From positions 197,508 to 261,507 of the forward strand of contig CAUJCN010000002.1 in assembly GCA_963169855.1 (NCBI GenBank): a stretch of 64,000 nt of DNA. The letters run 5' to 3'. The stretch's first letter is position 1, and every line of letters begins with the position of its first letter. Of this stretch, positions 47,525-64,000 are shown piece after piece. Below the pieces are notes generated by a model that did not search any database, had not been told where the DNA came from, and saw nothing but the letters and a program-made list of their open reading frames with translations. The translations under genes were made by a program, and so were the position numbers. Source of the stretch: Patescibacteria group bacterium (GTDB taxonomy: Bacteria > Patescibacteriota > Dojkabacteria > J137).

Positions 47525-47726
47525 CTATCTTAAGATAACCCCATGCATCTCAGTAATAGTTGTGTAATAGCATTACCCTAACAGTAAAACATTTATCGAA
47601 AGTGATGTCAAGGGCCTTGGAAGCACTCAATCTGCAAAGCAGGATCTCGATCGAGAAATGAAAACACTCATTCTGAGTAAATTTGTTGATTGATTTTCTT
47701 GTAACTTTTTAGTGGAATTTGGAGTA

Positions 47727-48614: not shown

Positions 48615-48633
48615 AAGTGGGTTAATTATACCA

Positions 48634-48775
48634 TATGGGCTGTGGGTTATGAGCTGTGAGCTTTGGGCTTTTGGCTGTGAGTTTTAAAGACCTTTTACCC
48701 TAGTTATTTGATACTTCAAGATTCAAGATTCAAGATTCAAGATTTAAATATAATCTTTCGCCTTTGACCTTTTTC
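48634..48775. repeat. intergenic repeat element copy C (4 GGGCTGTGAG-like decamers + 4x CAAGATT tandem + TTTCGCCTTT)
   Basis: gggctgtgggttatgagctgtgagctttgggcttttggctgtgag ... caagattcaagattcaagattcaagatt; heptads at 48717..48744. Confidence 0.55.
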
Positions 48776-48817
48776 ACTTATAATAAAGAATACTTAATTT
48801 ACCACTTCAACTTTAAT

Positions 48818-50647: not shown

Positions 50648-51798
50648 GCTAAATCTAAGTAAGCTTTAGCGTTTGGAATAAGGCAGTTGAATCTCTTCTG
50701 CTTTACCTTTAACTTGTTGATTGCAACCAACGTAGAAGCTCCTAACGCAACTTTCACACAATCTTTACTTGCAGATAACGCTATGTACTCTCCGATAGAT
50801 TCTGTACCTCTATTGAAGTCTTCAATTTCGTATCTTCCCATTGGTCCATACCAAGCGATTGTTTTTGCACTTTCGATTACTTCTCTAAAAAGAACAAGCG
50901 TCTTTTCTCCAAGATCCACAATAAATTTGTTGTTTGGAACAACCTGAACGTCGTTATCAATAGCTACTGGGTTTTCTAGGCTTTCTGAAACAATATGATC
51001 AATTGGTAAAATCAATTGAATTTTCTTAGATTCTACTAGTTTAATAATCTCTTGAGTTTTCTTTAAAGCTTTTTCGTCTAGTTTTGTCTTACCTGTCTTC
51101 ACACCTTTTGCTGAAAGGAAATACAATGCCATTTCTCCTCCGACTAAGATCTGATTGAACTTAGTAACTACCTTTTTAAGACCAGTTAGTTTATCTAGTC
51201 TTCCTTCACCACCGATAATCAAAACAGCAGGTTCTCTAAAACCTTCTTTCATTTTCTCGATACTATCAAGATCCTTTTGATAACTAAGACCGTAGTAAGA
51301 TGGTAATTTCTTTTCTAATATTGAAATTGAAGCTAAAGATTCATCCCCACCGAAAGCTTCGTTTACAAAAGAAGTACAGTAAGTAGTAATCTTTTCCATG
51401 AAATTTTCTTTATCTGCTGGCTTACCTTTGAATTCTTCTTTGTGGAAATTCAGGTTCTCTAGTATAAGAACATCTCCGAATTCCATGAATTTAATTGAGT
51501 TGTCGCAGTTTGCAACATCAACGAATTTTATTGGTTTTGCCAGTAAATTTCCGATTGCAAATCTAACCTGCATTAAGGAATTCTCGTCGTTGTATTCTCC
51601 AGTCTGCTCGCCTAAAGAAGCTAAAATAACTACTTTTGCCTGAGCTTTAATTAGTTCCTGTAATGTTGGGATAAGATTTCTAATCTTCGTATCGTCAAGG
51701 ATTTCACCATTAGAAAGAGGCACGTCCAAATCAGCTCTGATAGCTACGATCTTTCTTGCGAAATTACCGTCTGAAAACCTTTTATAAGTTGTTGTCAT
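50644..51798 (-). CDS. pgk: phosphoglycerate kinase
   Basis: KIVAIRADLDVPL (PGK signature R.D.N/D.P) and overall two-domain length. Confidence 0.8.
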   Translation of the reverse strand: MTTTYKRFSDGNFARKIVAIRADLDVPLSNGEILDDTKIRNLIPTLQELIKAQAKVVILASLGEQTGEYNDENSLMQVRFAIGNLLAKPIKFVDVANCDNSIKFMEFGDVLILENLNFHKEEFKGKPADKENFMEKITTYCTSFVNEAFGGDESLASISILEKKLPSYYGLSYQKDLDSIEKMKEGFREPAVLIIGGEGRLDKLTGLKKVVTKFNQILVGGEMALYFLSAKGVKTGKTKLDEKALKKTQEIIKLVESKKIQLILPIDHIVSESLENPVAIDNDVQVVPNNKFIVDLGEKTLVLFREVIESAKTIAWYGPMGRYEIEDFNRGTESIGEYIALSASKDCVKVALGASTLVAINKLKVKQKRFNCLIPNAKAYLDLA

Positions 51799-51855
51799 AT
51801 AGCTATTATATCATTTTGCCAAGGTTTTTGCAATGGATGTCCTCGCCAATATCGT

Positions 51856-53073
51856 TTACTGTTCGATATTATCGATGTTTTGCCGAGTCTCAAAAGAAGG
51901 GAAAACAACTCCATCTTTTCGAAAAATCCCTGTGCCAGTAACGAATTCCAGCCCCTTACCCTTCATTTGTCTAAACAAATTTAGGGTGCTACTTCTAATG
52001 GCATCAAGCTTTTTAGGAGGCAAGTAGCCCAATTTCAAGAATAAATCGTTACCAAATTCTTCTATAATGTCCTTTTGATGCTCTGTAATTTCGAAGTAGT
52101 AACTTTTATTACCATGGCTTAATATCAAAAGAAACGGTTTTTTCTTTGAAATGGCAATTTCCATGCCAACGATCTTACTAGCAATCTCCAAGTTAATAAG
52201 GGTTAATTTCGTGGACTTTCCAAGCAACTCTCTATACCCTTGCATATTCACTATCTTCACAGAACTAGCGAGCATAGGACTTTTTTGAGCTACTTGTGCC
52301 AACCTCGAAAGAGTAATTTGATCGAATGCTTTAAATGCCTTTCGTAATAGATCTTCTCGGGCTAAAGGAAACCCTGTTCGAGTTGCGCCAGCAGGATAAC
52401 ATTGCTCAAAAGGAACTCTAGTATTTAGGTTCACCAGGATTTTGTTAGCTTCTGTTGTATGGGTAGTAACATCTGTAAAGCCACTTTGAATCCTCCATAC
52501 TTGTTCATCGATGTAGTCTCCTGTGAATCCTGCTATAAATTTTATATAACGATACCCTGCTTGGTTTCTTGAGCAAGCAAATTTTACTGTATTCGTTGTG
52601 GGATCTGTAAGAACATAGAAATAGAAATCTCCTCCTCCATAGATCGTATATTTAAATGATGCAGAGTCTAGTTTATAAATGAGCAACTCTTTCCCTTCCC
52701 ACCCAATAACATTTTTAGGATTGTAAAAACCTTTTACGTCATCAAAGAACTCACGGTTCATAATCTCTATCTTCTCTTCTAAATCATCTTCAGACTTGGA
52801 AATTACAACTCCACCTGAACTATTAAGCCTTCCCGGACTCAATTTCTTTATTCGCCAACCCTCATTTATGATTTCCCGATTGATTCTAGCCATCGAGATC
52901 TCAAGTGTTCTTGGAGAATATCCCCTAGAAAATCTTCGTAAGTCCCATAGATTTAAATGTCCTTTTCTGAGCAATTCATCGTAAAGAAAGTTGGTGATGG
53001 ATTCTATTCCTGCTGATTCTATTATTGGTATTTTGTTCCTAAGGTCTTCCATAAAAACGATTATAACTCTCAA
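51856..53073 (-). CDS. hypothetical protein, paralog of 53134..54327
   Basis: 405 aa; shares ...R..PG....GG.VI...EDD... N-terminal block and ...LLI(L/I)S(H/N)G... C-terminal block with neighbour. Confidence 0.4.
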   Translation of the reverse strand: MRVIIVFMEDLRNKIPIIESAGIESITNFLYDELLRKGHLNLWDLRRFSRGYSPRTLEISMARINREIINEGWRIKKLSPGRLNSSGGVVISKSEDDLEEKIEIMNREFFDDVKGFYNPKNVIGWEGKELLIYKLDSASFKYTIYGGGDFYFYVLTDPTTNTVKFACSRNQAGYRYIKFIAGFTGDYIDEQVWRIQSGFTDVTTHTTEANKILVNLNTRVPFEQCYPAGATRTGFPLAREDLLRKAFKAFDQITLSRLAQVAQKSPMLASSVKIVNMQGYRELLGKSTKLTLINLEIASKIVGMEIAISKKKPFLLILSHGNKSYYFEITEHQKDIIEEFGNDLFLKLGYLPPKKLDAIRSSTLNLFRQMKGKGLEFVTGTGIFRKDGVVFPSFETRQNIDNIEQ

Positions 53074-53133
53074 TCCTCTTTTCCGAGTATCTATTTACGA
53101 AATGAAGTTACAAAAATACTCACTAAAGTCTTA

Positions 53134-54327
53134 CTAGCTTTCCCATACGGGGACTGGAAATATCAGAAATCTGTCGATCACGCATCCAGTCCCATCTGCT
53201 ATGGCAATTCCGTCTCTTTTCATAGCTGCAACCAGTCCTTTAAAGTAGTAATGAATGCTATCGTAACCATTCGTTCGCGTACCACCATATAAAATCACAT
53301 CTCCATCAAACGCGCTGATTGCACTTGCTTGTAGGGTAGAAATTTCTGCTAGCTGTAGCTCTTTTCCATTGGATATTATTAAAAGCCTGGTTCGCTCTTT
53401 AAAGAGGTTAAGCGGAATCTTGAGCTTATGTATTACTTGAGCGGTATCTAGAGGGATAAGTTTAACTTCTCCTTGTTTAAAAGCTTTTTTGGTAGCTTCG
53501 AAAGCCTTTCCAGAAGAAAGAATTTTTTGAGAAAATTTTGATGGACTCATAGAAAACGAAACCCAGTTGCTTACTAGATCTATCCTATTTCTCAAAATAC
53601 TTAGCAATGGATGCTTTCCAAGCATGGTTTTTAGGTAATCTATCCTGGCATTAGAGTTGGTAATTATGGAATACCCTCCTGCATTCGTAGCTTTAAATAA
53701 TGGTTCCATCTGGAGAATTTTGCCTAATCTTTTTACTTCGTTAACAAAATGATCGTACTTGATTACTGTTGAGAGGGTCTCCCAAATTAAGGAATCGAAG
53801 TACTCTACTTCGGCATCGTTTAACCTTTGCAGTTGGATTCCGATCAATGAATTTAAAGTAGCATAAAAAAGTCTGCTTTTTTCATTCACCCTTACATACA
53901 AAGTTATTGACTGGACACTGTAGTCAGCATCTTTAAAGTCTTCAGTACCGAAATTGAATATCTGGACTTCTCCTTCTGATGTTTTATACGAAGCTGATGG
54001 TTTCTTTTGGAGCGATTCTAGCTGAGAGTAAAATCTTTCGTTAATTTGTTGGACATAGATTGATGGATCATCTTCAAGATTAATAATGACCATCCCACCG
54101 ATACAACCTCCTGAGCCTGGTCTAATTCTAACAATTCTCTTCCCCTCATCTTTTAATTTTTCATTTAAATAATGTTGAACAGCATCTTTATAACTTTCTG
54201 AATAACCTTTTAATAGAACTGACATATCCATCCGGGTTAGGAATTTCAGATCATTTATTACCTCTACTATCCTTTCCCCTAAAGCTATCTCATTATTGAC
54301 TGGCGGAATAATTGGGTCTGTAAGCAT
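53134..54327 (-). CDS. hypothetical protein, paralog of 51856..53073
   Basis: 397 aa; RIRPGSGGCIGGMVIINLEDD parallels KKLSPGRLNSSGGVVISKSEDD. Confidence 0.4.
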   Translation of the reverse strand: MLTDPIIPPVNNEIALGERIVEVINDLKFLTRMDMSVLLKGYSESYKDAVQHYLNEKLKDEGKRIVRIRPGSGGCIGGMVIINLEDDPSIYVQQINERFYSQLESLQKKPSASYKTSEGEVQIFNFGTEDFKDADYSVQSITLYVRVNEKSRLFYATLNSLIGIQLQRLNDAEVEYFDSLIWETLSTVIKYDHFVNEVKRLGKILQMEPLFKATNAGGYSIITNSNARIDYLKTMLGKHPLLSILRNRIDLVSNWVSFSMSPSKFSQKILSSGKAFEATKKAFKQGEVKLIPLDTAQVIHKLKIPLNLFKERTRLLIISNGKELQLAEISTLQASAISAFDGDVILYGGTRTNGYDSIHYYFKGLVAAMKRDGIAIADGTGCVIDRFLIFPVPVWES

Positions 54328-54332
54328 TACTG

Positions 54333-55862
54333 TTATGAAATACGAACTAGTTGTTTATTTAAAATTTCATAAGAATATCTTACATCTATTTTCTCTAAAA
54401 AATCTACATCGTGGCTTACAACTACAATCGCTCCTTCGTATTGTAATAGTAACTCAGAAAGCCTTTCTTTGGTTTCAATATCTAGGTTGTTGGTTGGCTC
54501 ATCTAAAATTACTAAATCCGACTGAGAAACCGTAGCCAAAACAAAAGCTAGTTTTGCTACTTCACCTCCGCTTAAACTTGCTGCTTTTGAATACTTGATT
54601 TGGTTCGAAGAGAACCCTACACTACTTAATGCTTTAATTATTAATTCATCCTCCATCTCACTAGTTACTTGTTTTACATTCTCTATTGGGGTTAATTCAA
54701 GATTTACAACATCATATTTTTGATTTACGAAGAGGGTTTTAAATTCCTTTCCATATGTTACTTCACCTACAATTTGTGACGAGTGAGCGTATGGCAAGTT
54801 CTTTATGAATGTAGTTTTCCCTGAGCCGTTATCTCCAGAAATCGATACTCTATCATTTCCGTATAAAGAAAAATTGATATTTTCGAGCAGAACTTTATCT
54901 TGCAATTTTAAGAATCCATTCGTGATGTTCACTAACAATCCCTTTCTATTTGATGATTTAAATTCAATAAATATCTTTTTTCTTTTTTGTTGAGAAAACT
55001 GCTTCATTTCAGATTCGTGTTCCGCTACTCCCTGCTCGAGTTTCGATTTTGCAGCACCGTGCTTAACTTGACCGCTAAGTTTAAGAGCATTTCGAACTAT
55101 CTTTGGCATACTTCTGTCGTTACTCTTAGCAGCTCTTGTTAGTTTTGATTGAGCTTTTTGAAACTTAATATTTTCTTTGTGTAGAGAATTTTTTGCTTTG
55201 CTAAGTTCCTTCTGTGCTGATTCGTATTTTCTTGCAATTGATTCTTCAGTTTTTCTTTTTTCTTCTAAATAGAAATCATAATCTCCTCCAAAGACTTTAA
55301 GATTCCCACTCTTTAGTTCCCAGATTTTGTTTACAGTAGAGTTTAGAAAGTTAATATCGTGACTTACGACAATGAATGTTAGATTTTCCTTAATAAGGTA
55401 GTTCGACAAAAAGTTCATTGATTTCTTATCTAGATGATTAGTCGGTTCATCTAAAAGTAAAACATCCGGATTTTGATGCAATGCTATACAGATTTTAAGC
55501 TTCATTAGCTCTCCTCCACTTAAGCAACTCAGTTTCGAATCCTCGGATATTTTTGTTTGAAAGATTTCTTCTATTTTTGAGAATATTTCCCACCACTCTT
55601 CAGTGATTCTTGATAAGTACTGGTAAACCAATTCCTCGCTTCTATATTCGTCGAAATCCAGTTGACTTACATAAACGACTTTAACTTCGTTACCTGCATT
55701 GTTTTTTATTGCTTTCAGCAGAGTGGATTTACCAGTTCCGTTAACACCTATAAGACCAATGTGATCACCTTGTAGAACTGATCCGCTAACTGCGTTCAGA
55801 ATTTCCCTATCGAATGATAGGTTAAGATTATTGAATGTTATTAATGATTTTTGATTATGCAT
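54333..55862 (-). CDS. ABC-F family ATPase (tandem ABC domains, no TM domain)
   Basis: Two Walker A sites (GVNGTGKSTLL; GDNGSGKTTFI), two signature/Walker B sets (LSGGELMKL/LLLDEPTNHLD; LSGGEVAKL/LVILDEPTNNLD), charged linker. Confidence 0.8.
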   Translation of the reverse strand: MHNQKSLITFNNLNLSFDREILNAVSGSVLQGDHIGLIGVNGTGKSTLLKAIKNNAGNEVKVVYVSQLDFDEYRSEELVYQYLSRITEEWWEIFSKIEEIFQTKISEDSKLSCLSGGELMKLKICIALHQNPDVLLLDEPTNHLDKKSMNFLSNYLIKENLTFIVVSHDINFLNSTVNKIWELKSGNLKVFGGDYDFYLEEKRKTEESIARKYESAQKELSKAKNSLHKENIKFQKAQSKLTRAAKSNDRSMPKIVRNALKLSGQVKHGAAKSKLEQGVAEHESEMKQFSQQKRKKIFIEFKSSNRKGLLVNITNGFLKLQDKVLLENINFSLYGNDRVSISGDNGSGKTTFIKNLPYAHSSQIVGEVTYGKEFKTLFVNQKYDVVNLELTPIENVKQVTSEMEDELIIKALSSVGFSSNQIKYSKAASLSGGEVAKLAFVLATVSQSDLVILDEPTNNLDIETKERLSELLLQYEGAIVVVSHDVDFLEKIDVRYSYEILNKQLVRIS

Positions 55863-56002
55863 AATTCCAGATTAACAAAGTAAAGTTTGCTGGAACTTGC
55901 TGAAGATATAGAAAATCTAACTCAACGAGTTTCAGCGATTAGTTGTTTACTTTATTTCGCATCGGAATTAGTTAATCTTAAAAATGTTTACTGTGTGTAA
56001 TA

Positions 56003-56073
56003 TTCGGAGACTAGGATTCGAACCTAGACAAGCAGCTTCAAAGGCTGCGGTCCTACCATTAGACGATCTCCGA
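56003..56073 (-). tRNA. tRNA-Gln (anticodon UUG)
   Basis: Minus-strand cloverleaf: acceptor TCGGAGA/TCTCCGA, D-arm, anticodon stem GCAGC/GCTGC with loop CTTTGAA, T-arm CTAGG-TTCGAAT-CCTAG; CCA not encoded. Confidence 0.75.
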
Positions 56074-56092
56074 ATACTACACACATTCTTTT

Positions 56093-56175
56093 TGCGGGAC
56101 TAGCCCCGTATCCAGTACGGGGGAACCTAGACAAGCAGCTTCAAAGGCTGCGGTCCTACCATTAGACGATCCCGC
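56093..56175 (-). tRNA. tRNA-Gln(UUG)-like second copy with aberrant/expanded T-arm (possible pseudo-tRNA)
   Basis: 48 nt identical to the body of the first copy (D-arm through variable region) but different acceptor (GCGGGAT/GTCCCGC) and a CCCCGTA-CTGGA-TACGGGG hairpin in place of the T-loop. Confidence 0.4.
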
Positions 56176-56244
56176 AATAATGCATAGCATTTTATCAATA
56201 AAAGCTAAAAGATAGAAGTGCCAATATGCCTAATATTACTATTC

Positions 56245-56562
56245 TTATGAGGCATCTCGTAAGGAGAATACATACCCTTTAAATGAAGTTGTGCTTTCTT
56301 CAGACCTTCTCCAAGTTCTACCATCAAATTCACTATAGAACTCTCCAAAGGATGATGGTCCAAACCTGGATCCTACAGTACCTTCGAATTCTAACTTAAT
56401 AGCTCCATTGAGAGCCGATTCTAATTGGCTAGGTGGCAATAGCTGCTTTAATGTATTTTCTGGTATAACAAGTTGAAATGACATTCCAATCTGCTCTCTT
56501 AATGCTTGTAACTTTTCTACTAAAATACTAATTGCTCCAATTAAGTTCATCGAGTTAGCCAC
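56245..56562 (-). CDS. hypothetical protein
   Basis: 105-aa ORF, no motif. Confidence 0.3.
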   Translation of the reverse strand: MANSMNLIGAISILVEKLQALREQIGMSFQLVIPENTLKQLLPPSQLESALNGAIKLEFEGTVGSRFGPSSFGEFYSEFDGRTWRRSEESTTSFKGYVFSLRDAS

Positions 56563-56630
56563 TCCGTACTTTCCATAGTGTATATACTCTTGATATTCTA
56601 CACTTTTTTATGGAGAGGATCTAAGCAAAC

Positions 56631-57362
56631 TTAAAATTCTTCAACTTTCACCAATTGAAGCGAATCGTCTTTTGCCACAACCGTGTAATGATTGTGTAGT
56701 TTTAAATCTATGTGTAGTTTTTCCAGAAATTTTCTAACCTGAGAAGTTAATACCTGTATGTACGATCTTGTTAATTCTTCTCCAAAACAGTTTGCAGTAA
56801 TGTTTTCGATTGTTACAGGTCCAGCCTCTATTGTAGGTAACAGAAACTTTAACAGGAATTCCATTTTGGATTTACTCTTATATAAAAAGTTTTCAATCAA
56901 CGCAATATCTTCATCAATTTTGTTATCTCTTTTCTGTCTTTCAAGAGTAATTTTACTTTGTAATCTTTTCTGAAAAAGAAAAACGACATCCAAGTATTCT
57001 AAATGACCACCAATTACTGCTCTAAGGTAGTACAAAATATGCTGCACTGTTTTTATCTCATTTTTATCCACTTCGTAGTAGTGACTAAAAGAGTCTAATA
57101 TATCTGAAAAAAGCTCTGCCCAATCGCTTACAACTCCAAACTTCTCTTCAGAATTTGCATGGATTCTTCGAACTTTACTTTCCCATATTCTCAAAATGTC
57201 ACAAACATAATTAAACAACTTTGGTGATTGAGTATTGAACTCCGTGAGTTGTTCTCGGAAATTTACCGATTCGGTTGTGAAAATATATCTTAAATCTACA
57301 GAGTCATTCAAAGGCTGTCTTTTCGTATCTAATCTTTGTCGCTCTGAAAATGTTGCTCCCAT
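56631..57362 (-). CDS. hypothetical protein
   Basis: 243-aa ORF, no motif. Confidence 0.35.
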   Translation of the reverse strand: MGATFSERQRLDTKRQPLNDSVDLRYIFTTESVNFREQLTEFNTQSPKLFNYVCDILRIWESKVRRIHANSEEKFGVVSDWAELFSDILDSFSHYYEVDKNEIKTVQHILYYLRAVIGGHLEYLDVVFLFQKRLQSKITLERQKRDNKIDEDIALIENFLYKSKSKMEFLLKFLLPTIEAGPVTIENITANCFGEELTRSYIQVLTSQVRKFLEKLHIDLKLHNHYTVVAKDDSLQLVKVEEF

Positions 57363-57625
57363 AATGCATAATTTTTGTGATTATACTATCAATTCTTCTG
57401 ACGTCAATACGGTTGAATTTAGTTTAAATACTGTATTCTGAAATTTAGCTACAAAGAAGATTTCAGTACCGCATTGGGAATTTTTGAAATGAGCTAAGAA
57501 CTCTCCTTTAGAGTATTCAGCGTATTCTTTTGTCTCCTGTGGTGACATCTCCACAAAGCCTATATAACTGCTATATTATAGCATAGCAAGTCGCTATATA
57601 TCGGCATCAGGGAATAGTTTTAGCT

Positions 57626-59488
57626 TTAGTAGCTAATCTCGTAATCTTCGTTTTCTAGACGCAAATCTTGAATATGATCCTTAAGGAAGTTGAATGTTTG
57701 CTCTGCCTTCATTTCTTTATTTCTTAGAAGCTCATCAGCAAACGATTGAATTAATGATTTATGCTCACCTACAAGCTTTTCAGCTTCCCATTTTGATTCA
57801 GAAGCCATTTCTTGCAAGTACGAATTTGTTTTTTCGAAGTCAGTGTCATAATTTTCGCTATGCATTTCTGTGACCGGTTTGACAGATGTATTAACTCTAT
57901 CGTCTAGACCGAACTTTCTAATATAGTTTGCAATAAGACTTGTGGCTCTTTCGATATCTGATTGACTTCCGGCAGAAACCTTTTCTTCTCCCATGAATAG
58001 TTTTTCGGCCGCCATTCCAGCATATAGAACAATTAACTTCTTCTTCACATTTTCTTTAATATTAACAATCTGATGCGGGAACACAAAACCAGAGATACTG
58101 TTTGACGACGAATTCACCACAACTTGCATTGGAGCGATTTTAAATAGCTCTGAATAAAGAACTGCATGAGCCGCTTCGTGAATTGCTGTAACTTTTCTAT
58201 AAATCTCACTTTTACTTGTTCTTATTCTGTCTAATGTTCCTTGATATGAAATCTCTGAGAAAACAGAGTCTGAATTGTCCTTCCCTACGATTTGCTGTGC
58301 TTTTTCATTGTAAGAAAGATGGATTGTATTCACATTTATTTTTAGAGCTTGAGCAAGAATCATTGCTACTTTATTTTCAACAATTTCTGTAATAGTACTG
58401 AATAATGGTCTTGTTCCTTGAACTGGGAAAACACCGTTCTTGTAAATTAAGTTATGAATTGTTTGATCGAACGAAACTTCTACTCTAAAAGACTCACTAA
58501 TTTTTTCTGCTATCTTTTTAAGTCTTTCGGAAATAATTCTTTTATATGCACTTTCACTTAAACTTGGATAAATTATATGAGTGTTACCTAATCTACTTAT
58601 TTGTTCAGGTTTAAATCTTAAAGACAATGCCTCTTTAATTTTAATTACGTTGATTTGTTTGGTTTGTGCATGAAAAATATCCGCATCTACATCAGCTTGA
58701 TCGGCCTCTGCAGCCATTTCATAGGCTTCGTCTAAGTTTCCACTAATAATTACTAGTGATTTAGAAAAATCAGCCTCCTTAAGAACTGATTTTGTACTGA
58801 ACTTTTCAAAAACTAAATCATATAGTGTTGAAGCAGTGAATGTTTTTATGACTTCGATATCAAGCGGTAAATCTACAACGTTCTTTAATTTGCTAAGATC
58901 CCAACTACTCAATCTTAGTTTTGGCGGTGCTTCACCAGCTGCTTTTGCTCTTTCTTCACTTTCTCTTTCAGAATCAAGCATCGAAAGAATCGAGTAAAGC
59001 TCCATTACTGAATCCTTTACAGCAAATTTACCATCACTCAAAAGTTCCCAGAAATCTCCAAATTTTGTTTCGAAAATATCTTTTCCTTCTTGATCAATTG
59101 TTCTAAATTTCTGAATTTCGTCAAAGAAAATTATGTTTGGCTGCGATGGGTCTACAGACGTTATTCTTATTGCTTCGGCAACTGTAGACATATATCTATT
59201 GTAGCCTGCGTCTCCGTTCGTTAGAGTTATCTCTGTGAATCTTTCTCTTAAGTCCAGAAAGTCGACAAGTTTTCTAACCAAATCAGTTTTTCCGACTCCA
59301 GTTAATCCCCACAAATTTATTACAACTGGACGTGTAATAATTTCTGGCATTACATACCAGACGTATAAAGAATCAATTAGTAGATCAATTTGTTCGTCTA
59401 TTCCGAAAAATAAATTCTTCAAGTAAGATCTAGCACTGTTTAATTTTTCTTCTTGTGAGATTCTCTCGTTCATAAATCGATTATACAA
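57626..59488 (-). CDS. soluble P-loop NTPase fused to peptidase M41 (FtsH-like protease domain) without membrane anchor
   Basis: Walker A GLTGVGKTDL, Walker B IIFFDEIQK; C-terminal AIHEAAHAV (HExxH), LYAGMAAEKLFMGE and SAGSQSDIERATSLIANYIRKFGL align with FtsH HEAGHA / LYGGRLAEE / [24 protein letters not shown]; no TM helices. Confidence 0.6.
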   Translation of the reverse strand: MYNRFMNERISQEEKLNSARSYLKNLFFGIDEQIDLLIDSLYVWYVMPEIITRPVVINLWGLTGVGKTDLVRKLVDFLDLRERFTEITLTNGDAGYNRYMSTVAEAIRITSVDPSQPNIIFFDEIQKFRTIDQEGKDIFETKFGDFWELLSDGKFAVKDSVMELYSILSMLDSERESEERAKAAGEAPPKLRLSSWDLSKLKNVVDLPLDIEVIKTFTASTLYDLVFEKFSTKSVLKEADFSKSLVIISGNLDEAYEMAAEADQADVDADIFHAQTKQINVIKIKEALSLRFKPEQISRLGNTHIIYPSLSESAYKRIISERLKKIAEKISESFRVEVSFDQTIHNLIYKNGVFPVQGTRPLFSTITEIVENKVAMILAQALKINVNTIHLSYNEKAQQIVGKDNSDSVFSEISYQGTLDRIRTSKSEIYRKVTAIHEAAHAVLYSELFKIAPMQVVVNSSSNSISGFVFPHQIVNIKENVKKKLIVLYAGMAAEKLFMGEEKVSAGSQSDIERATSLIANYIRKFGLDDRVNTSVKPVTEMHSENYDTDFEKTNSYLQEMASESKWEAEKLVGEHKSLIQSFADELLRNKEMKAEQTFNFLKDHIQDLRLENEDYEISY

Positions 59489-59494
59489 TTTATT

Positions 59495-60460
59495 TTAGCG
59501 AGTTGTTACTTCTGAAGGATCTATAAATCTTTCAATTAGTGAGTGGAATTGTTCCGCCAGCTGTTCAATTAATTCTTCCTTTGAAATTTCCTTTTGAAGA
59601 TATCGTTTTAAAACAGGAGCTCCTTTTTCAATCTCAGAATAAAGTTGCACCCAGCGATCGCGCCTCGACGGATCCTTTTCATAAAGCTTTCTATAGTGTT
59701 CTAAATTCTTTGAAGGTGACATTCCAAAAACTAATACATCATTCAAGGAGTAAACTATCACTTCTTCGATAAAGTAAGAAAACGTAGCTTTATAAATGGC
59801 CTCGATAGTTCTATCAAATTCTGGGAAATGTTTTTCAAAATATACTGCTGGATTAAGTTCTTTATGAGTAAATTCGTGAGCTAAAATTAGTAGAGAATTG
59901 TTGAAATTACTTTTAGTATTTCCAGTAGTAGAAACTTGAGCGACAATTCCCTCCCCATTTGCACCACCTTGAGAAGAGTTTGGATCAGGAGAATAGGTTA
60001 TATATGCTGGTAAAACTCCACTTTTTGGAGTTGTTTCGAAAACTTCTGTAAAAATCAGAATGTTTTTTTGAGTTGTTAAATTGTTAAACTGTCTTTCTAG
60101 TTCTACTGATGTTTCTTGAATTGTTGGGAGAACAGACTCGAGCTCCTCTTTTAAAGTTTTCCCATCTTTTCTTTTGGCTTCTGCAATCGCAACTAAATGT
60201 TCTAACAACTGAGAAAATTTATCGTTTTCAGGAAATCCAGAGTAAGCCCAATTTAGTAATTCAGCTTCCTGATCCCATCCAAGCTCTGCTTTAATTCTTG
60301 CGTATTCTGACAAGTGCTGCTGGACTTCATCTGTAATTTGATAATTGGCAGTAAAGTATCTTGGAATATGTGGGCCAACAAAATAATCCCATTTAGAAGC
60401 ACCGTTTATGAAATCAACTAAAAGTACATTGTAGTTTGTTCTTACGTCAAGCGTTCGCAT
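59495..60460 (-). CDS. putative zinc metallopeptidase-like protein (HExxH)
   Basis: Single HExxH motif LILAHEFTHKEL; otherwise unrecognised. Confidence 0.4.
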   Translation of the reverse strand: MRTLDVRTNYNVLLVDFINGASKWDYFVGPHIPRYFTANYQITDEVQQHLSEYARIKAELGWDQEAELLNWAYSGFPENDKFSQLLEHLVAIAEAKRKDGKTLKEELESVLPTIQETSVELERQFNNLTTQKNILIFTEVFETTPKSGVLPAYITYSPDPNSSQGGANGEGIVAQVSTTGNTKSNFNNSLLILAHEFTHKELNPAVYFEKHFPEFDRTIEAIYKATFSYFIEEVIVYSLNDVLVFGMSPSKNLEHYRKLYEKDPSRRDRWVQLYSEIEKGAPVLKRYLQKEISKEELIEQLAEQFHSLIERFIDPSEVTTR

Positions 60461-61011
60461 TACTTTCCTCCTAATCTTACGTATTTTATGTAAGCAATTA
60501 TTAATTCATAAGCTTCGAATGCTGGAACTAAAATTGGATCTTTGTTTTCAACCATACTTTTAAATTCCTCAAACGAAAACCATTTTAATCCATCGACTTC
60601 ATCATTTTTTATATCAAGATTAAAATCGTAATTACCAAGATCAATAAATGTATGTATGAATTCGTTTTCAACGATCCCCTTTTCTGAATCAGAAAATCCA
60701 CCTCTTACAATTCCCTGCAAAAATAGTGTATCAATATTAATATCTATTCCTAATTCTTCTTTTGCTTCTTTGATTGCTGTAGAAACTGGATCTGAGCCAG
60801 CGTCAATGTGACCTGAGACTGGTGCAATCCAAAGATTAGGAAAAAGTTTTTTCAACGGAGTTCTTTTTTGTAGAAGAATATCATTGTTTTCGTTGATAAA
60901 CCAGACATGAGAAGAAGCATGCCAATCACCATCTCTATGAACTTCTGAACGATTTTTTATAGCTTCTGTTGGTCTTCCAAATTTATCGTAAAGTGTTAGA
61001 TTGTCGTCCAT
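60460..61011 (-). CDS. NUDIX hydrolase
   Basis: Nudix box GHIDAGSDPVSTAIKEAKEELGI (G.5E.7(R/K)EuxEExGu). Confidence 0.65.
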   Translation of the reverse strand: MDDNLTLYDKFGRPTEAIKNRSEVHRDGDWHASSHVWFINENNDILLQKRTPLKKLFPNLWIAPVSGHIDAGSDPVSTAIKEAKEELGIDINIDTLFLQGIVRGGFSDSEKGIVENEFIHTFIDLGNYDFNLDIKNDEVDGLKWFSFEEFKSMVENKDPILVPAFEAYELIIAYIKYVRLGGK

Positions 61012-61046
61012 TTTGATGTGTTAAATAGAATTATTCTATCACAACC

Positions 61047-61550
61047 TTACGGAGTTAAAGTGTAACCGAATACCCCTTTTGAATAGTACAAGTCGCCCCT
61101 TTTTTCGATCACAATATATGCTTGAGCATTGTAGTAAACTGAAATATTTGGATCTGTAATTTCTCCTCTGTATGTAATGTTACCTTCAATGTATTGATTA
61201 GGCTCTCCAGGTATAAATAATTTCCAGACAGTGAAGTTCTGAAAAATTCTGTCGAAGTTTAAGTAACAATAAGGTTCCCCAGGGCTCATGAAAAAGTACT
61301 GTCCTACCCAAGGATAAGATGTGATTAACGCTTCTGGACTTTCGTGACCAATTTGGAATACAGTGTTTCCATTCAAATTGAATAATCCTGGCGCATCGTT
61401 AAAATATTTATCACATACTTTATCTGGACCTGTAATTTCCAAAATTGCTGGCAACCAATAGTCTTTTGTAACAACGAACAGGAAACAACAGGAAGAGGCA
61501 ATGCAACATGCGATTAGAATGACGAAAACAAAGATAAATGGAACTTTCAT
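61047..61550 (-). CDS. secreted hypothetical protein
   Basis: Signal peptide with cysteine cluster (ILIACCIASSCCFLFV); no motif. Confidence 0.35.
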   Translation of the reverse strand: MKVPFIFVFVILIACCIASSCCFLFVVTKDYWLPAILEITGPDKVCDKYFNDAPGLFNLNGNTVFQIGHESPEALITSYPWVGQYFFMSPGEPYCYLNFDRIFQNFTVWKLFIPGEPNQYIEGNITYRGEITDPNISVYYNAQAYIVIEKRGDLYYSKGVFGYTLTP

Positions 61551-61591
61551 AATTATTTGATAACTAGTTTATGAGTACTAAATAGTGTACA

Positions 61592-61972
61592 TTACAAAGT
61601 TGCGTATAAATCGCATTTGTATCCATCGGGATCTTCCACAATACAATATCTCTGCCCCCAAAAAGCATCCCATGGTTCTTTGAAAATTGCAAATCCTGAT
61701 GATTTAATCTTTTCCGCAACTGAATTTAGTTCTTCTACAGAATCGTATTGGATTGCAAAGTGAGAATGATTACTTGGTTTTGGTTCTTCTCCTAATATTT
61801 CTGTAATCAATTTCTTGGAATCAATCATCAGTCTAGCATAACCTTCTGGTGTTTCTGGTTCTAGATGATCTTCGTCTTCTTTGTATTCTGGAAATTTGAA
61901 GCCAAGAATTGTGTAGAATTCTACAGTTCTCTTAAGATTGCTTGAGCAGACTCCAATTGCGTTTAGTTTCAT
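61592..61972 (-). CDS. VOC (glyoxalase/bleomycin-resistance) family protein
   Basis: 126 aa; MKLNAIGVCSSNLKRTVEFYTILGFKF N-terminal beta-alpha-beta-beta-beta module. Confidence 0.65.
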   Translation of the reverse strand: MKLNAIGVCSSNLKRTVEFYTILGFKFPEYKEDEDHLEPETPEGYARLMIDSKKLITEILGEEPKPSNHSHFAIQYDSVEELNSVAEKIKSSGFAIFKEPWDAFWGQRYCIVEDPDGYKCDLYATL

Positions 61973-62274
61973 ATATTTATTATACGATCGTAGTTGGAAA
62001 AAGGAAACTTAGTAAGAAAGCCGGTGGGTTATTAGAAAATTTCCAATAACACTATTGCTCAGCTTACCAAATATCCCACGGGATACTGGAATCGCTGGAC
62101 CTAAAATTCTGTGTTGAAACTCTGTGGCCACCGGCTAAATTAATTATAACTTCAAGGAAAAGAATTAGTCCAGAATTTTGTTCCAATCTTCTTATGAAAT
62201 AGAAGTATCCAAACTTTTAGCTTTTTACGTTTACATCGTCTATACTTATAGAATTCTATTTTATTCGAAATATT

Positions 62275-62796
62275 ATGAATCTAGCCATCCTCTCAGTTTT
62301 AGTTTGTGAAATTCTTCTTATCTTATTTGCAGGTTATTTGGTAATTTCCTGGATTAGCCAAACTCCGTTCTATCCTTCTTCAACGAGTAAATTGGACAAA
62401 GTTTTAAAAGATCCTTCATTGAATCTTCCAGAACACATCAATTTTGTAGATATTGGATCTGGGGACGGAAGGTTCGTTATCTGGGCAGCCAAGAAAGGTT
62501 TTAACGCGGAAGGAATCGAATACAATCCCTTTTTATCGCTTTATAGCCGTTTTAAAATATTTGTTTGGAGACTTAAAAATGCGGTGATTCATAATAAAGA
62601 TTTCAAAAAACACGACTTTAGCAAGTACAATTTTGCTTACCTGTACATCTTTTCCGAACATATGGATGGAATTAAGGAGAAATTATTCTCAGAAATGTCC
62701 GAAGGAAGTGTGATTATCACCAACAGCTTTAAGTTTGGGGATTTGCATCCAGATGCTAAAATAGACAAGTATAATATCTACTACGTTAAGAAATGA
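62275..62796 (+). CDS. class I SAM-dependent methyltransferase (small, N-terminal TM)
   Basis: Motif I VDIGSGDGRFVIWAA; N-terminal hydrophobic helix. Confidence 0.6.
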   Translation: MNLAILSVLVCEILLILFAGYLVISWISQTPFYPSSTSKLDKVLKDPSLNLPEHINFVDIGSGDGRFVIWAAKKGFNAEGIEYNPFLSLYSRFKIFVWRLKNAVIHNKDFKKHDFSKYNFAYLYIFSEHMDGIKEKLFSEMSEGSVIITNSFKFGDLHPDAKIDKYNIYYVKK

Positions 62797-63374
62797 GACT
62801 TTTTATAGGATTATTCCCACCACAAAGTTTTCTTCGGTTTGTTACGGAGACAATGCGTGAGTTCGACAAGGAAAAGAGAAATTTGAATAACATTCCTTTG
62901 GAACAAATTCATTTGACGCTTAAATTTATAGGTTCCGAAGTGAGCCTGGAAACTTATGACGAAATTTATGATCTTTTGAAAAGATTTGAAGGCCAATATA
63001 CTAAGCCTGAAATCTCGGTTAATAAAGTTCGATTGGGATTCCCTGGGCAAATCGATCCTAGACATTTAATTCTGGATATCGAATCAACAGATACTCTTTT
63101 GGAGCTTTCAAATTCTTTACATAAATTGATTAAACATCTTGGCTTAAGAGATACTATTCGATGGAAAGATAAACAGTTCAATGAATTCCATGTTTCCATT
63201 TCGAAATTGAAGGACAGTGCCTCTTCTACAAAAGGTAAAGATATTAAAAGAATTTGCGAAACTTTAAAAACTCCTATTCCAGAATCGTTCTACCCCGAAG
63301 AAATGCTTTTAATGGAAAGCGTGTTAATAAATGGAGTTCCTAAATACAGAAAACTTGCGAGTATAAAGTTGTAA
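62793..63374 (+). CDS. RNA 2',3'-cyclic phosphodiesterase (2H phosphoesterase, ThpR/LigT family)
   Basis: Two H-x-(T/S)-x motifs: HLTLKFIG and FHVSISK. Confidence 0.7.
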   Translation: MRLFIGLFPPQSFLRFVTETMREFDKEKRNLNNIPLEQIHLTLKFIGSEVSLETYDEIYDLLKRFEGQYTKPEISVNKVRLGFPGQIDPRHLILDIESTDTLLELSNSLHKLIKHLGLRDTIRWKDKQFNEFHVSISKLKDSASSTKGKDIKRICETLKTPIPESFYPEEMLLMESVLINGVPKYRKLASIKL

Positions 63375-63480
63375 AGTTTTTCAGCCTTTTTGAATATTTC
63401 GAGACTGTAAGCTAATCTATCTTAATCTTTCTGACTCTCTTTACATTCGAATGCTACTTCGTTGACATACCCAATCTCTG

Positions 63481-63954
63481 CTATTTTGAAACAACTGTAG
63501 CAAGTCCATTAAAATTGATCCGTAGCGTATCTAGATCCGCTCTTTGTAAATAGTTCTCTAAATCAGATAATGGGTCGACTGTGAAAAAGGATTTTTTAAG
63601 TATATCGAAGTACAGGACCACAAGATGCCTACTGCCTAAAACTTCATGTTGAATAGAAATCATGGCATAGCTATTCGAAACATTGGTTAAGAACCTGCAT
63701 ACTGTTGATAAATCCACACCTATAAGAGCTTCTGCTCGTAAATCAAAAACTTCGAAAAGTTGACTTGATATTCTATGGTCATATCCTCCCAATATACTAA
63801 ATGCCGGTACAAGATTTTCATCAGGATCGCTAACATAAAAATTTTGTGTATAAATAGAGTCAGCTGGTCCTAAAGTAATATCCAGTACCTCATTGCCCTC
63901 TAGGTATCTAGCCTTTGCCACTCTCACATTATTTTTGTGGAGTCCTGCTAACAT
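63481..63954 (-). CDS. hypothetical protein
   Basis: 157-aa ORF, no motif. Confidence 0.35.
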   Translation of the reverse strand: MLAGLHKNNVRVAKARYLEGNEVLDITLGPADSIYTQNFYVSDPDENLVPAFSILGGYDHRISSQLFEVFDLRAEALIGVDLSTVCRFLTNVSNSYAMISIQHEVLGSRHLVVLYFDILKKSFFTVDPLSDLENYLQRADLDTLRINFNGLATVVSK

Positions 63955-64000
63955 TATAGCTATTTGCTTTGGTGTAACAGTACTTGCTAGCTCAGAAACC

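What the first reader, a model, noticed from the sequence alone, without database searches (positions are those of the whole stretch)
57626..61011. Operon of NUDIX hydrolase, HExxH protein and a membrane-less P-loop/M41 FtsH-like protease
ORF 57626..59488 has an unmistakable M41 peptidase C-terminus (HEAAHAV; LYAGMAAEKLF; SAGSQSDIERATSLIANYIRKFGL) but no transmembrane segment. Its N-terminal ATPase is a divergent P-loop (GLTGVGKTDL ... IIFFDEIQK) with a long insert rather than the canonical FtsH AAA+ module. It is co-directional with and tightly spaced to a second HExxH-containing protein (7-nt gap) and a NUDIX hydrolase (stop/start sharing at 60460). The cluster lies immediately beside the tandem tRNA-Gln locus. 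A soluble FtsH-like protease with a remodelled NTPase, teamed with a nucleotide-diphosphate hydrolase, is not a described housekeeping unit.
Basis: partly seen in the sequence, partly recalled or inferred. Interest (0 to 1): 0.6.

Follow-up and report, generated by a model that had tools for sequence, protein, structure and literature searches.

The report
Soluble Clp-type AAA+ M41 protease
The large gene encodes a membrane-less, single-chain ATP-dependent zinc protease that joins a Clp/Hsp100-type motor to an FtsH-type protease domain; it belongs to a widespread family I found no study of, but its pairing with the neighbouring NUDIX and HExxH genes occurs only in this genome.

Summary
The three minus-strand ORFs are real: NUDIX (61011..60460), HExxH protein (60460..59495) and a 615/620-aa AAA+/M41 protein (59473 or 59488..57626).

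**The protease.**
- Its C-terminus is a catalytically intact M41 peptidase domain.
- Its N-terminus is not an FtsH AAA module. It is a Clp/Hsp100 D2-type AAA+ module with ClpB_D2-small lid.
- An ~88-residue helical insert sits just before the sensor-1 strand.
- It has no transmembrane segment.
- All ATPase and protease catalytic residues are invariant in 80 homologues.
- The family has at least 291 species-level genome hits, in Bacteroidota, Actinomycetota, Acidobacteriota and Gammaproteobacteria. The window copy is a divergent outlier (≤43-44% identity).

**The operon idea fails its own test.**
- 75 homologous loci share no conserved neighbour.
- One Nudix-box ORF was found among 491 neighbours.
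- The HExxH homologue was never adjacent to an AAA-M41 homologue.
- Tight co-directional spacing is the norm across this window.

**Best reading.** A stand-alone cytosolic hexameric AAA+ metalloprotease that works like Lon or FtsH but is a member of neither. The HExxH protein belongs to a separate small family resembling gluzincin (zinc-peptidase) enzymes. The NUDIX is IPP-isomerase-like but lacks the catalytic Cys. I rate it a new variant of a known kind, of moderate interest.

The parts
57626..59473 (-). CDS of the soluble AAA+/M41 protease (615 aa from ATG 59473; an alternative TTG start at 59488 gives 620 aa). Residue numbers in this report use the 615-aa form.
   Evidence: ORF. Identical to public protein P0001. 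Pfam, NCBIfam and PDB domain hits. AF2 model with pLDDT 89.4 and pTM 0.84.
59024..59473 (-). Residues 1-150: N-terminal helices plus the first half of the AAA+ large subdomain. Contains Walker A G56-x-T-G-V-G-K62-T63, a candidate pore-1 aromatic Y94, Walker B F117-D118-E119, a pore-2-like loop at 124-138, and the helix DFWELLSDG.
   Evidence: Motifs are invariant in 80 homologues, and position 94 is aromatic in 78 of 80. Residues 9-89 match the start of ClpA/ClpE D2.
58760..59023 (-). Residues ~151-238: a helical insertion of about 88 residues (predicted helices 153-178, 190-200, 206-210, 214-226). It is flanked by short strands at 149-150 and 234-235 and lies immediately before the sensor-1 strand.
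   Evidence: DSSP of the AF2 model. The insert is present throughout the family, with near-invariant W191. Its equivalence to the pre-sensor-1 hairpin / ClpX RKH-loop position is my inference from known HCLR-clade anatomy.
58562..58759 (-). Residues 239-304: sensor-1 strand (LVIISGN246LD) and the Arg-finger segment F-K-P-E-Q-I-S-R294.
   Evidence: N246 and R294 are invariant. Pfam AAA_2 covers this segment (residues 232-295). ClpB and ClpV D2 equivalogs match 238-396 and 237-382 in 620-aa numbering.
58238..58561 (-). Residues 305-412: ClpB_D2-small-type lid domain with sensor-2 (Q352-G-x-R355-P356) and a three-stranded sheet that links to the protease domain.
   Evidence: Pfam ClpB_D2-small scores 34.4 bits against a cutoff of 21.9 and is present in 17 of 17 family members. 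ClpB, Hsp104 and ClpC D2 match at up to 6e-12 with the profile.
57629..58237 (-). Residues 413-615: Peptidase_M41 domain with H432-E433-x-x-H436, E490 and D506 (the third zinc ligand by alignment to FtsH).
   Evidence: Pfam M41. The alignment to A. aeolicus FtsH places D506 on the Asp of the 'ENDL' motif. H432, E433, H436, E490 and D506 are invariant in 80 sequences.
59495..60460 (-). Neighbour gene: a 321-aa protein of a small uncharacterised HExxH...E family that resembles gluzincin (zinc-peptidase) enzymes. Its linkage to the protease is not conserved.
   Evidence: No Pfam, NCBIfam or PADLOC hit. 74 cluster representatives. Invariant H195, E196, H199, E233, W24 and W71-A72, with near-invariant GGANG. 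AF2 pLDDT 95.9. Only weak fold hits, mostly M1/M61 peptidases.
60460..61011 (-). Neighbour gene: a 183-aa NUDIX-fold protein that resembles type-1 IPP isomerase but lacks the catalytic Cys. Its linkage to the protease is not conserved.
   Evidence: Pfam NUDIX 2.1e-17. Best NCBIfam hit is the IPP isomerase model, 73 bits against a cutoff of 127. The PDB IDI alignment shows NSVCGH against APVSGH, with GIVENE conserved.

Best explanation
ORF 59473..57626 (minus strand) encodes a divergent member of a widespread family of soluble, single-chain ATP-dependent zinc metalloproteases that I found no study of.

**Architecture.** One Clp/Hsp100 D2-type AAA+ module (HCLR clade, with ClpB_D2-small lid) is fused directly to an FtsH-type M41 peptidase domain. 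The module carries an ~88-residue helical insertion at the pre-sensor-1 position.

**Shown.**
- The domain architecture.
- The absence of any membrane anchor.
- Invariance of every ATPase and protease catalytic residue across the family.
- The lack of conserved gene partners.

**Inferred mechanism.**
- The protein assembles into a two-tier hexamer.
- ATP-driven pore loops, including the conserved aromatic at position 94, unfold and thread cytosolic substrates into the M41 chamber, as in Lon and FtsH.
- The insertion decorates the entry face of the ring and supplies substrate or adaptor recognition. This would be analogous to the HslU I-domain or the ClpX RKH loops.

**Neighbours.** The NUDIX and HExxH genes are chance or lineage-specific neighbours in a tightly packed, strand-biased chromosome region. 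They are not components of a conserved system.
For: **M41 domain.**
- Pfam Peptidase_M41, 60.9 bits.
- Profile hits to YME1 and FtsH protease domains at 7e-19 to 1e-14.
- HExxH, E490 and D506 are invariant. The E-to-D spacing of 16 residues equals my recollection of the E479-to-D495 spacing in E. coli FtsH.

**AAA+ module.**
- ClpB_D2-small is found in 17 of 17 family members and AAA_2 in 14 of 17.
- ClpB and ClpV D2 equivalog models match residues ~237-396 in 620-aa numbering.
- ClpB, Hsp104, ClpC, ClpA and ClpE D2 chains are hit in PDB. For every FtsH-family chain, the only significant stretch is the protease domain.
- Foldseek gives ClpB NBD2 a TM-score of 0.66-0.73 normalised to the target.
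- Walker A, Walker B, N246, R294 and R355 are invariant. The pore-1 position is aromatic in 78 of 80 sequences.

**Soluble.** No hydrophobic 19-mer scores above 1.73 in 120 members, and the top-scoring ones inspected lie in conserved core segments.

**Real, conserved family.**
- The listed homologues are about 610-740 aa (median 623) with E-values below 1e-126.
- 291 relatives were found in a collection holding one genome per species.

**Stand-alone gene.**
- 132 immediate neighbours hit 148 Pfam families. The commonest, IF-3, occurs in only 7.
- PADLOC hits among neighbours are single and scattered.
- One Nudix-box ORF occurs among 491 neighbours.
- There are no plasmid or phage copies.

**Packing.** Tight spacing is the norm in this window.
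Against: - No biochemical data exist. Hexamer formation, ATPase activity and proteolysis are all inferred from homology.
- The NUDIX/HExxH junction (TAATG with an AGGAGG ribosome-binding site) indicates real co-expression of at least those two genes. A local functional association with the protease therefore cannot be excluded.
- In the divergent subclade nearest the window protein, two of four contexts carry a nucleotide hydrolase nearby. One is an NTPase_I-T gene 9 nt downstream of P0002. The other is a NUDIX about 2 kb downstream of P0003.
- Patchy, cross-phylum distribution is unusual for a housekeeping protease. Between-phylum identity is about 0.51-0.53 and within-phylum about 0.56.
Confidence: 0.75

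Rival explanations
1. The three genes form a genuine, lineage-specific operon. In it, the NUDIX hydrolase (nucleotide or signal turnover), the gluzincin-like HExxH peptidase and the AAA+/M41 protease act in one pathway, for example a stress-response or peptide-processing cassette.
For: - NUDIX and HExxH overlap by one base, with a strong internal ribosome-binding site.
- The HExxH stop is only 6-21 nt from the protease start.
- Nucleotide hydrolases lie near two of the four closest relatives with context.
Against: - No co-occurrence was found in 75 AAA-M41 loci.
- None of six HExxH-family contexts carries an AAA-M41 gene.
- 25 of 44 same-strand gene pairs in the window are no more than 25 nt apart, and 49 of 65 genes are on this strand.
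- A TATAAT box lies directly upstream of the protease ATG, so the gene may have its own promoter.
Confidence: 0.12
2. The AAA+/M41 protein is a single-gene conflict or defence effector, such as an abortive-infection protease, that spreads by horizontal transfer.
For: - The distribution is patchy, with at least 291 hits among 185,579 species genomes.
- Cross-phylum identity is nearly equal to within-phylum identity. A Methylophaga copy is 67% identical to an Acidimicrobiales copy.
- Two paralogues occur in a Neolewinella genome and in an Arcicella MAG.
Against: - The protein has no PADLOC match.
- Neighbours are housekeeping genes such as IF-3, FabH, PheS and IMPDH, and PADLOC hits among them are only singletons.
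- No plasmid or phage copies were found.
- The window region shows no integrase and no GC shift.
Confidence: 0.1
3. It is a decayed or truncated FtsH, with a lost transmembrane region or a mis-called start, or a pseudo-protease that acts only as a chaperone.
For: Some sources label family members 'cell division protease FtsH'.
Against: - A stop codon lies directly upstream in frame.
- The AAA module is Clp-D2 type, not FtsH type.
- The TIGR01241 FtsH model scores 55 bits against a cutoff of 600.
- Members keep a similar length (median 623 aa) and architecture, and all catalytic residues are invariant in the 80 aligned.
Confidence: 0.02

Closest known systems
FtsH / YME1 / AFG3 (MEROPS family M41 AAA proteases)
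   Same: - C-terminal M41 zinc peptidase domain with HExxH, the conserved Glu and the Asp third ligand at the same spacing.
- A single polypeptide carrying both motor and protease.
- Presumably a stacked hexamer.
   Different: - No N-terminal transmembrane or periplasmic region.
- The ATPase is not the classical-clade AAA module (no SRH, no AAA_lid_3). It is a Clp/Hsp100 D2-type module with ClpB_D2-small lid and an ~88-aa insert.
- It falls far below the FtsH equivalog cutoff.
ClpB / Hsp104 / ClpA / ClpC D2 (NBD2) modules of the Hsp100 family
   Same: - N-terminal signature helices.
- GxTGVGKT Walker A, and an LLxxLxDG helix after Walker B.
- Sensor-1 Asn, an FRPE-x3-R Arg finger and a GxRP sensor-2.
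- D2-small lid.
- Foldseek TM-score of about 0.7 to ClpB NBD2.
   Different: - Only one AAA+ tier.
- No N-domain, D1 or M-domain.
- A large helical insertion before sensor-1.
- Covalently fused to a protease, rather than docking on ClpP or acting as a disaggregase.
Lon (LonA/LonB)
   Same: - A soluble, single-chain protease built from an HCLR-clade AAA+ module fused to a C-terminal protease domain.
- The closest functional analogy for a cytosolic quality-control or regulatory protease.
   Different: - Lon's protease domain is a Ser-Lys dyad S16 peptidase, not a zinc M41 domain.
- Lon has a long N-terminal substrate-binding domain that is absent here.
- I detected no homology to Lon beyond the shared AAA+ fold.
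HslU I-domain and ClpX RKH loops (insertions that decorate the entry face of HCLR unfoldases)
   Same: An accessory element is inserted into the AAA+ large subdomain. Here it lies between the post-Walker-B helix and the sensor-1 strand, the region that carries the ClpX RKH loop. It is likely to mediate substrate or adaptor recognition.
   Different: - No sequence similarity was detected.
- To my knowledge, the HslU I-domain is inserted at a different point in the large subdomain.
- The function of the insert here is inferred, not tested.

Membership tests
FtsH (TIGR01241 / membrane-anchored M41 AAA protease) | N-terminal transmembrane helices that anchor the hexamer in the membrane | tested here: not met
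   The highest 19-residue Kyte-Doolittle mean is 1.19. A stop codon lies directly upstream, and none of 120 family members has a transmembrane-like N-terminus.
FtsH (TIGR01241 / membrane-anchored M41 AAA protease) | Classical-clade AAA module (PF00004 with SRH, plus AAA_lid_3) | tested here: not met
   PF00004 matches only the Walker A/B half, at 22 bits. No AAA_lid_3 hit was found. For every FtsH-family chain in PDB, the only significant matched stretch is the protease domain. The lid is ClpB_D2-small.
FtsH (TIGR01241 / membrane-anchored M41 AAA protease) | Score above the curated equivalog cutoff | tested here: not met
   TIGR01241 scores 55.4 bits against a cutoff of 600. NF008004 scores 32.6 against 1008.
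Peptidase family M41 (catalytic domain) | M41 fold with an HExxH zinc site and a downstream Asp third ligand | tested here: met
   PF01434 scores 60.9 bits against a cutoff of 29.9. H432, E433, H436, E490 and D506 are invariant in 80 sequences, and D506 aligns with the FtsH 'ND' Asp.
Clp/Hsp100 D2-type AAA+ module (HCLR clade) | AAA_2 core with ClpB_D2-small lid, sensor-1 Asn, an Arg finger in FRPE-x3-R and a GxRP sensor-2 | tested here: met
   ClpB_D2-small scores 34.4 bits against a cutoff of 21.9 and is found in 17 of 17 members. AAA_2 is found in 14 of 17, though the window copy scores 24.6 bits, just under its cutoff of 27. Motifs are invariant. ClpB NBD2 gives a TM-score of 0.66-0.73.
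ClpB / ClpA / ClpC (full-length Hsp100 proteins) | Two AAA+ tiers with an N-domain (and an M-domain in ClpB/ClpC), and a score above the equivalog cutoff | tested here: not met
   There is only one AAA+ module. TIGR03346 ClpB scores 46.8 bits against a cutoff of 1232, and the match is confined to the D2 part.
AAA+ protease (functional class: hexameric unfoldase stacked on a protease ring) | Ring assembly, ATP-dependent unfolding and proteolysis | not testable with these tools
   Only a monomer AF2 model was obtained. No multimer prediction or biochemistry was available.
Known anti-phage defence systems (PADLOC-DB v2) | Match to a defence-protein model, or location in a defence island | tested here: not met
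   Neither the protease nor the HExxH protein has a PADLOC hit. The NUDIX has only a weak PDC-S07 hit at 5e-5. Neighbours in 72 loci give only singleton hits.
NUDIX hydrolase superfamily (gene 61011..60460) | Nudix fold and Nudix box Gx5Ex7REUxEExGU | tested here: met
   PF00293 scores 63.8 bits against a cutoff of 21.1. The box reads G-HIDAG-S-DPVSTAI-KEAKEELGI, so the first Glu is Ser and the Arg is Lys, while the REx2EE glutamates are kept (read directly from the sequence).
Type-1 isopentenyl-diphosphate isomerase (IDI) | Catalytic Cys67 with Glu116, and a score above the equivalog cutoff | tested here: not met
   The IDI motif NSVCGH aligns with APVSGH, so the Cys is Ser; the E-N-E motif is kept. 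NF002995 scores 73 bits against a cutoff of 127, and TIGR02150 scores 43 against 105.8.
Gluzincin metallopeptidases (HExxH protein 60460..59495) | HExxH plus a downstream Glu zinc ligand on a thermolysin-like catalytic fold | tested here: inconclusive
   H195, E196, H199 and E233 are invariant in 36 diverse homologues. No fold hit is significant: the best PDB hit has E=0.17 and the best named peptidase hit in BFVD has E=0.01, although most top hits are M1 or M61 peptidases. There is no Pfam hit.

The most novel reading that the evidence does not exclude
This protein family is a previously unrecognised class of bacterial cytosolic ATP-dependent protease. It would be an independent fusion of an Hsp100/Clp-type unfoldase to the M41 chamber, until now known only behind membrane-anchored FtsH-type motors. 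Its own inserted domain would handle substrate selection. That would add a new member to the short canonical list: ClpXP, ClpAP/CP, HslUV, Lon, FtsH and the proteasome. Its patchy, horizontally transferred distribution would point to a specialised stress or conflict role rather than general housekeeping.
Probability: 0.55. Interest if true: 0.7.

Novelty: new variant of a known kind. Interest (0 to 1): 0.5.

Why it matters
All characterised M41 proteases (FtsH, YME1, AFG3/paraplegin) are membrane-anchored and use a classical AAA motor. The membrane anchor is thought to drive hexamerisation and to define their substrates.

A soluble M41 protease driven by a Clp/Hsp100-type motor shows that the M41 chamber can be coupled to a different unfoldase clade and can work in the cytosol. 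This gives:
- a natural experiment on how the motor and the chamber communicate;
- a soluble, single-gene system for structural and mechanistic work on M41 proteolysis;
- a candidate addition to the repertoire of bacterial regulated-proteolysis machines, present in hundreds of environmental and some cultivable species, including Chryseobacterium and Neolewinella.

The finding also corrects a tempting but unsupported operon inference.

Tried and rejected
**Conserved linkage with NUDIX or HExxH: rejected.**
- BLASTP, clustering, Nudix-box regex and Pfam/PADLOC scans of neighbours in 75 loci showed no linkage.
- Contexts of the closest relatives and of HExxH-family members showed none either.

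**Defence-system reading: not supported.** There are no PADLOC hits and no phage or plasmid copies.

**Mis-called start or hidden transmembrane segment: rejected**.

**Promoter and terminator scan: uninformative.** It found 18 promoter-like sites against 22.9 expected by chance, and no terminator after the protease gene.

- The third homologue search, run with the HExxH profile, returned only 3 proteins, presumably because of word-index limits.

**Literature.** Searches for a described Clp/Hsp100-M41 fusion or a soluble FtsH-like bacterial protease found nothing relevant. This is absence in the held library only.

**Source organism: not identified.**
- All window proteins checked are singletons in the 90% identity clusters.
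- No paper mentions the run accessions.
- The window genome was not among the 80 loci kept from the species-representative collection.
- The window encodes PNPase, MurJ, AsnB and a GldF/G-like ABC transporter, the adjoining DNA carries LpxC, and GC is about 35%. This points to a sparsely sampled low-GC diderm.

**Canonical ftsH.** None lies in the 64-kb window. Whether the genome has one could not be tested.

Full report
**1. Observation**

The minus strand carries three consecutive ORFs:
- NUDIX, 61011..60460, 183 aa.
- An HExxH protein, 60460..59495, 321 aa.
- A 620-aa ORF, 59488..57626. Public gene calls start it at ATG 59473, giving 615 aa (P0001, 100% identical). Residue numbers below use the 615-aa form.

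Junctions:
- NUDIX and HExxH share one base (TAATG), with an AGGAGG 8 nt upstream of the HExxH ATG.
- The HExxH stop is 6 nt from the TTG and 21 nt from the ATG of the large ORF. A TATAAT box lies in between.
- An in-frame stop lies immediately upstream of the large ORF, so no N-terminal extension is possible. The most hydrophobic 19-mer scores 1.19 on the Kyte-Doolittle scale, so there is no transmembrane segment.

The 'tandem tRNA-Gln' is one genuine tRNA-Gln(UUG) at 56074..56002 plus an uncalled tRNA-like copy at 56177..56091. These lie about 1.45 kb from the protease gene, with three small orphan ORFs between.

**2. What the large protein is**

*C-terminal domain.* Residues about 413-615 form an M41 peptidase domain.
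- Pfam PF01434 scores 60.9 bits against a cutoff of 29.9.
- The FtsH and YME1 protease domains are the best PDB matches, at 6e-10 with the single sequence and 7e-19 with a family profile.
- H432-E433-x-x-H436, E490 and D506 are invariant in 80 homologues.
- D506 aligns with the Asp of the FtsH 'ND' motif.
- By my recollection of the E. coli FtsH sequence, the 16-residue spacing from E490 to D506 equals that from E479 to D495.

*N-terminal domain.* This half is not an FtsH-type AAA module.
- Pfam finds ClpB_D2-small at 34.4 bits (above cutoff) and AAA_2. PF00004 covers only the Walker A/B region.
- NCBIfam ClpB and ClpV equivalogs match residues ~237-396 (620-aa numbering) through their D2 parts.
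- A family profile hits ClpB, Hsp104, ClpC, ClpA and ClpE D2 chains in PDB. This includes the signature N-terminal helices and P-loop of D2 (profile positions 9-89). For every FtsH-family chain, the only significant matched stretch is the protease domain.
- All 17 representative family members carry ClpB_D2-small, and 14 carry AAA_2.
- An AlphaFold2 model (80-sequence alignment, pLDDT 89.4, pTM 0.84) superposes on ClpB NBD2 with a target-normalised TM-score of 0.66-0.73. It matches FtsH over its whole length only loosely, with an rmsd of 10-12 Å.
- Walker A (GxTGVGKT), Walker B (FDE), sensor-1 N246, Arg finger R294 (F-[RK]-P-E-Q-x-x-R) and sensor-2 R355 (QGxRP) are invariant.
- A candidate pore-1 position (94) is aromatic in 78 of 80 sequences.

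*The insert.* Between the post-Walker-B helix (DFWELLSDG) and the sensor-1 strand lies an insertion of about 88 residues, made of four predicted helices. It is flanked by short strands at 149-150 and 234-235. By comparison with known HCLR-clade ATPases, this is the pre-sensor-1 hairpin position, which in ClpX carries the RKH loops. That equivalence is my inference, not a computed result.

**3. The family**

- The word-indexed search returned 2402 hits. The best 120 are about 610-740 aa (median 623), have the same architecture and have E-values below 1e-126. Sources name them variously 'AAA family ATPase', 'peptidase M41' or 'cell division protease FtsH'.
- A pattern scan of one genome per species (185,579 species) found 291 relatives. 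The 80 kept are 61 from Bacteroidota (Saprospiraceae, Chitinophagales, Cytophagales, Flavobacterium, Chryseobacterium, Arcicella), 14 from Actinomycetota (mostly Acidimicrobiia), 2 from Acidobacteriota, 2 from Methylophaga and 1 unclassified.
- In the main clade, identity between phyla (medians 0.50-0.53) is nearly as high as within phyla (0.56-0.57). One Methylophaga copy is 67% identical to an Acidimicrobiales copy. This suggests horizontal spread.
- A Neolewinella genome and an Arcicella MAG each have two paralogues, at 62% and 55% identity.
- The window protein is an outlier, at most 43-44% identical to anything. Its nearest relatives are five metagenomic sequences, P0002-P0006.
- No member has a transmembrane-like segment.
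- No copy was found in 72,556 plasmids or 50,697 phage genomes.
- The window protein has no PADLOC match.
- Six literature searches of the held library, plus a term check inside an FtsH review, found no description of such a fusion.

**4. Is the three-gene cluster a unit?**

That is what I found.
- In 75 loci with usable context, BLASTP found no HExxH homologue. It found only one weak NUDIX-like ORF, about 5 kb away.
- Clustering of ±4 neighbours gave no family present in more than 9 loci. Those found were housekeeping genes held in synteny among close relatives, such as IF-3, SPFH, FabH, PheS and IMPDH.
- A Nudix-box regex hit 1 of 491 neighbour ORFs.
- The 132 immediate neighbours hit 148 different Pfam families. 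The commonest, IF-3, occurs in 7. PADLOC hits are singletons.
- The four closest relatives with context differ from each other:
  - P0002 has an NTPase_I-T gene 9 nt downstream.
  - P0003 has a NUDIX about 2 kb away, behind HTH and acetyltransferase genes.
  - P0004 has a two-component system upstream.
  - P0005 has a Wzy_C gene downstream.
- HExxH-family members sit next to VanY genes, an APH kinase plus a metallo-beta-lactamase-fold gene, a Lactamase_B_3 gene or AlaRS. They never sit next to an AAA-M41 gene.
- Within the window, 49 of 65 genes are on the minus strand. The median same-strand gap is 14 nt, and 25 of 44 pairs are no more than 25 nt apart. Co-directionality and tight spacing therefore carry little information here.
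- NUDIX and HExxH are probably co-translated in this genome. Whether the protease shares their transcript is open.

**5. The neighbours**

*HExxH protein.*
- It has no Pfam, NCBIfam or PADLOC hit.
- An exhaustive HMMER search found a small family of 74 representatives, mostly about 300-330 aa.
- H195-E196-x-x-H199, E233, W24 and W71-A72 are invariant, and a GGANG motif about 26-30 residues before the HExxH is nearly invariant.
- The AF2 model is very confident (pLDDT 95.9), yet no PDB or BFVD match is significant. The weak top hits are mostly M1 or M61 zinc peptidases.
- I read it as a new, remote gluzincin-like peptidase family. The GGANG motif resembles the GxMEN strand of M1 peptidases; this is a resemblance from memory, not a tested result.

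*NUDIX protein.*
- It is closest to type-1 IPP isomerases (PDB hits at about 1e-9 to 5e-10).
- It falls below both IDI equivalog cutoffs.
- It has Ser in place of the catalytic Cys67, while keeping the metal-site E-N-E motif.
- It is an IDI-like Nudix protein of unknown substrate.

**6. Mechanism**

*Shown:*
- The architecture.
- Solubility.
- Intact catalytic motifs for both ATP hydrolysis and zinc proteolysis.
- A family-wide stand-alone genomic habit.

*Inferred:*
- The protein forms a two-tier hexamer, like Lon and FtsH.
- The Clp-type ring threads substrates through aromatic pore loops into the M41 chamber.
- The inserted helical domain sits on the entry face and supplies substrate or adaptor specificity.

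*Rivals:*
- A lineage-specific three-gene operon (probability about 0.12).
- A horizontally spreading single-gene defence effector (about 0.10).
- A decayed FtsH or pseudo-protease (about 0.02, contradicted by the evidence).

**7. Comparison and novelty**

The protein works like Lon (soluble, single chain, HCLR motor fused to a protease) and like FtsH (M41 chamber). It fails the membership tests for FtsH: no transmembrane segment, no classical AAA module, and 55 bits against a cutoff of 600. It also fails those for full-length Hsp100 proteins. It is a member of peptidase family M41 at the domain level, and of the Clp-D2-type AAA+ group at the module level.

I rate it a new variant of a known kind. 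It is a domain combination I found no description of, represented by hundreds of database sequences that carry only generic names. The operon or 'team' idea, which made up much of the original interest, is not supported. Interest is 0.5.

Noticed in passing
window 56091..56177 (minus strand), directly 5' of tRNA-Gln 56002..56074: An 87-nt tRNA-Gln(UUG)-like copy that neither ARAGORN nor Rfam calls. Its D-arm and anticodon arm are identical to the real tRNA. Its acceptor stem is different but fully compensated (UUGCGGG/CCCGCAA against UUCGGAG/CUCCGAA). Its T-loop is replaced by GUUC plus a 7-bp hairpin (CCCCGUA-CUGGA-UACGGGG). It folds as a cloverleaf at -35 kcal/mol. Whether it is a pseudogene or an odd functional tRNA-like RNA is unresolved.
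   Followed up: partly
window 59495..60460 (minus strand): The HExxH protein belongs to a small family with no Pfam, NCBIfam or PADLOC model: 74 representatives, mostly about 300-330 aa. It has invariant HExxH...E and W residues and a near-invariant GGANG motif. The predicted fold is very confident (pLDDT 95.9) but has no significant PDB or BFVD neighbour. The weak top hits are mostly M1/M61 zinc peptidases. In one relative it is flanked by two VanY genes.
   Followed up: partly
L085 2768-3298; the JGI contig carrying P0003 (no DNA held): In the divergent subclade nearest the window protein, nucleotide 'house-cleaning' hydrolases recur nearby. An NTPase_I-T gene lies 9 nt downstream of P0002. 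A NUDIX and a weakly HD-like gene lie 2-3 kb downstream of P0003. Only four contexts are known, so this may be chance.
   Followed up: partly
window 59480..59509 (minus strand): A promoter-like site (GTAACA, 18-nt spacer, TATAAT) has its -10 box ending 6 nt before the protease ATG at 59473, and no Shine-Dalgarno sequence is present. The protease might therefore be made from its own, possibly leaderless, transcript. This is a consensus match only.
   Followed up: no
L009, L013 and three other Saprospiraceae-type loci, gene -1 relative to the AAA-M41 homologue: An SPFH/Band_7 (prohibitin/HflK-like) membrane protein lies immediately upstream and co-directional in 5 of 75 loci. This is intriguing because HflK/C regulates FtsH. 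However, it is confined to what look like closely related (Saprospiraceae-type) genomes and may simply be inherited synteny.
   Followed up: no
L024 and L040 (Neolewinella aurantiaca); L046 and L078 (Arcicella MAG): Two paralogous AAA-M41 genes occur in each of these genomes, at 62% and 55% identity. This raises the possibility of hetero-hexamers or divergent specificities.
   Followed up: no
window 1..64000: There is strong strand bias, with 49 of 65 genes on the minus strand and GC skew negative in 30 of 32 windows. The region is very compact: 91% coding, with a median same-strand gap of 14 nt. All five window proteins checked are singletons in 90% identity clusters of about 15 billion proteins. 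The source is therefore a sparsely sampled low-GC (~35%) diderm lineage.
   Followed up: partly
window 56245..57554 (minus strand): Three small orphan ORFs (105, 243 and 57 aa) lie between the protease gene and the tRNA locus. The 243-aa ORF has no significant Pfam, NCBIfam or PADLOC match; the 105-aa and 57-aa ORFs were not scanned. None of the three had a BLASTP hit among the homologous loci.
   Followed up: no
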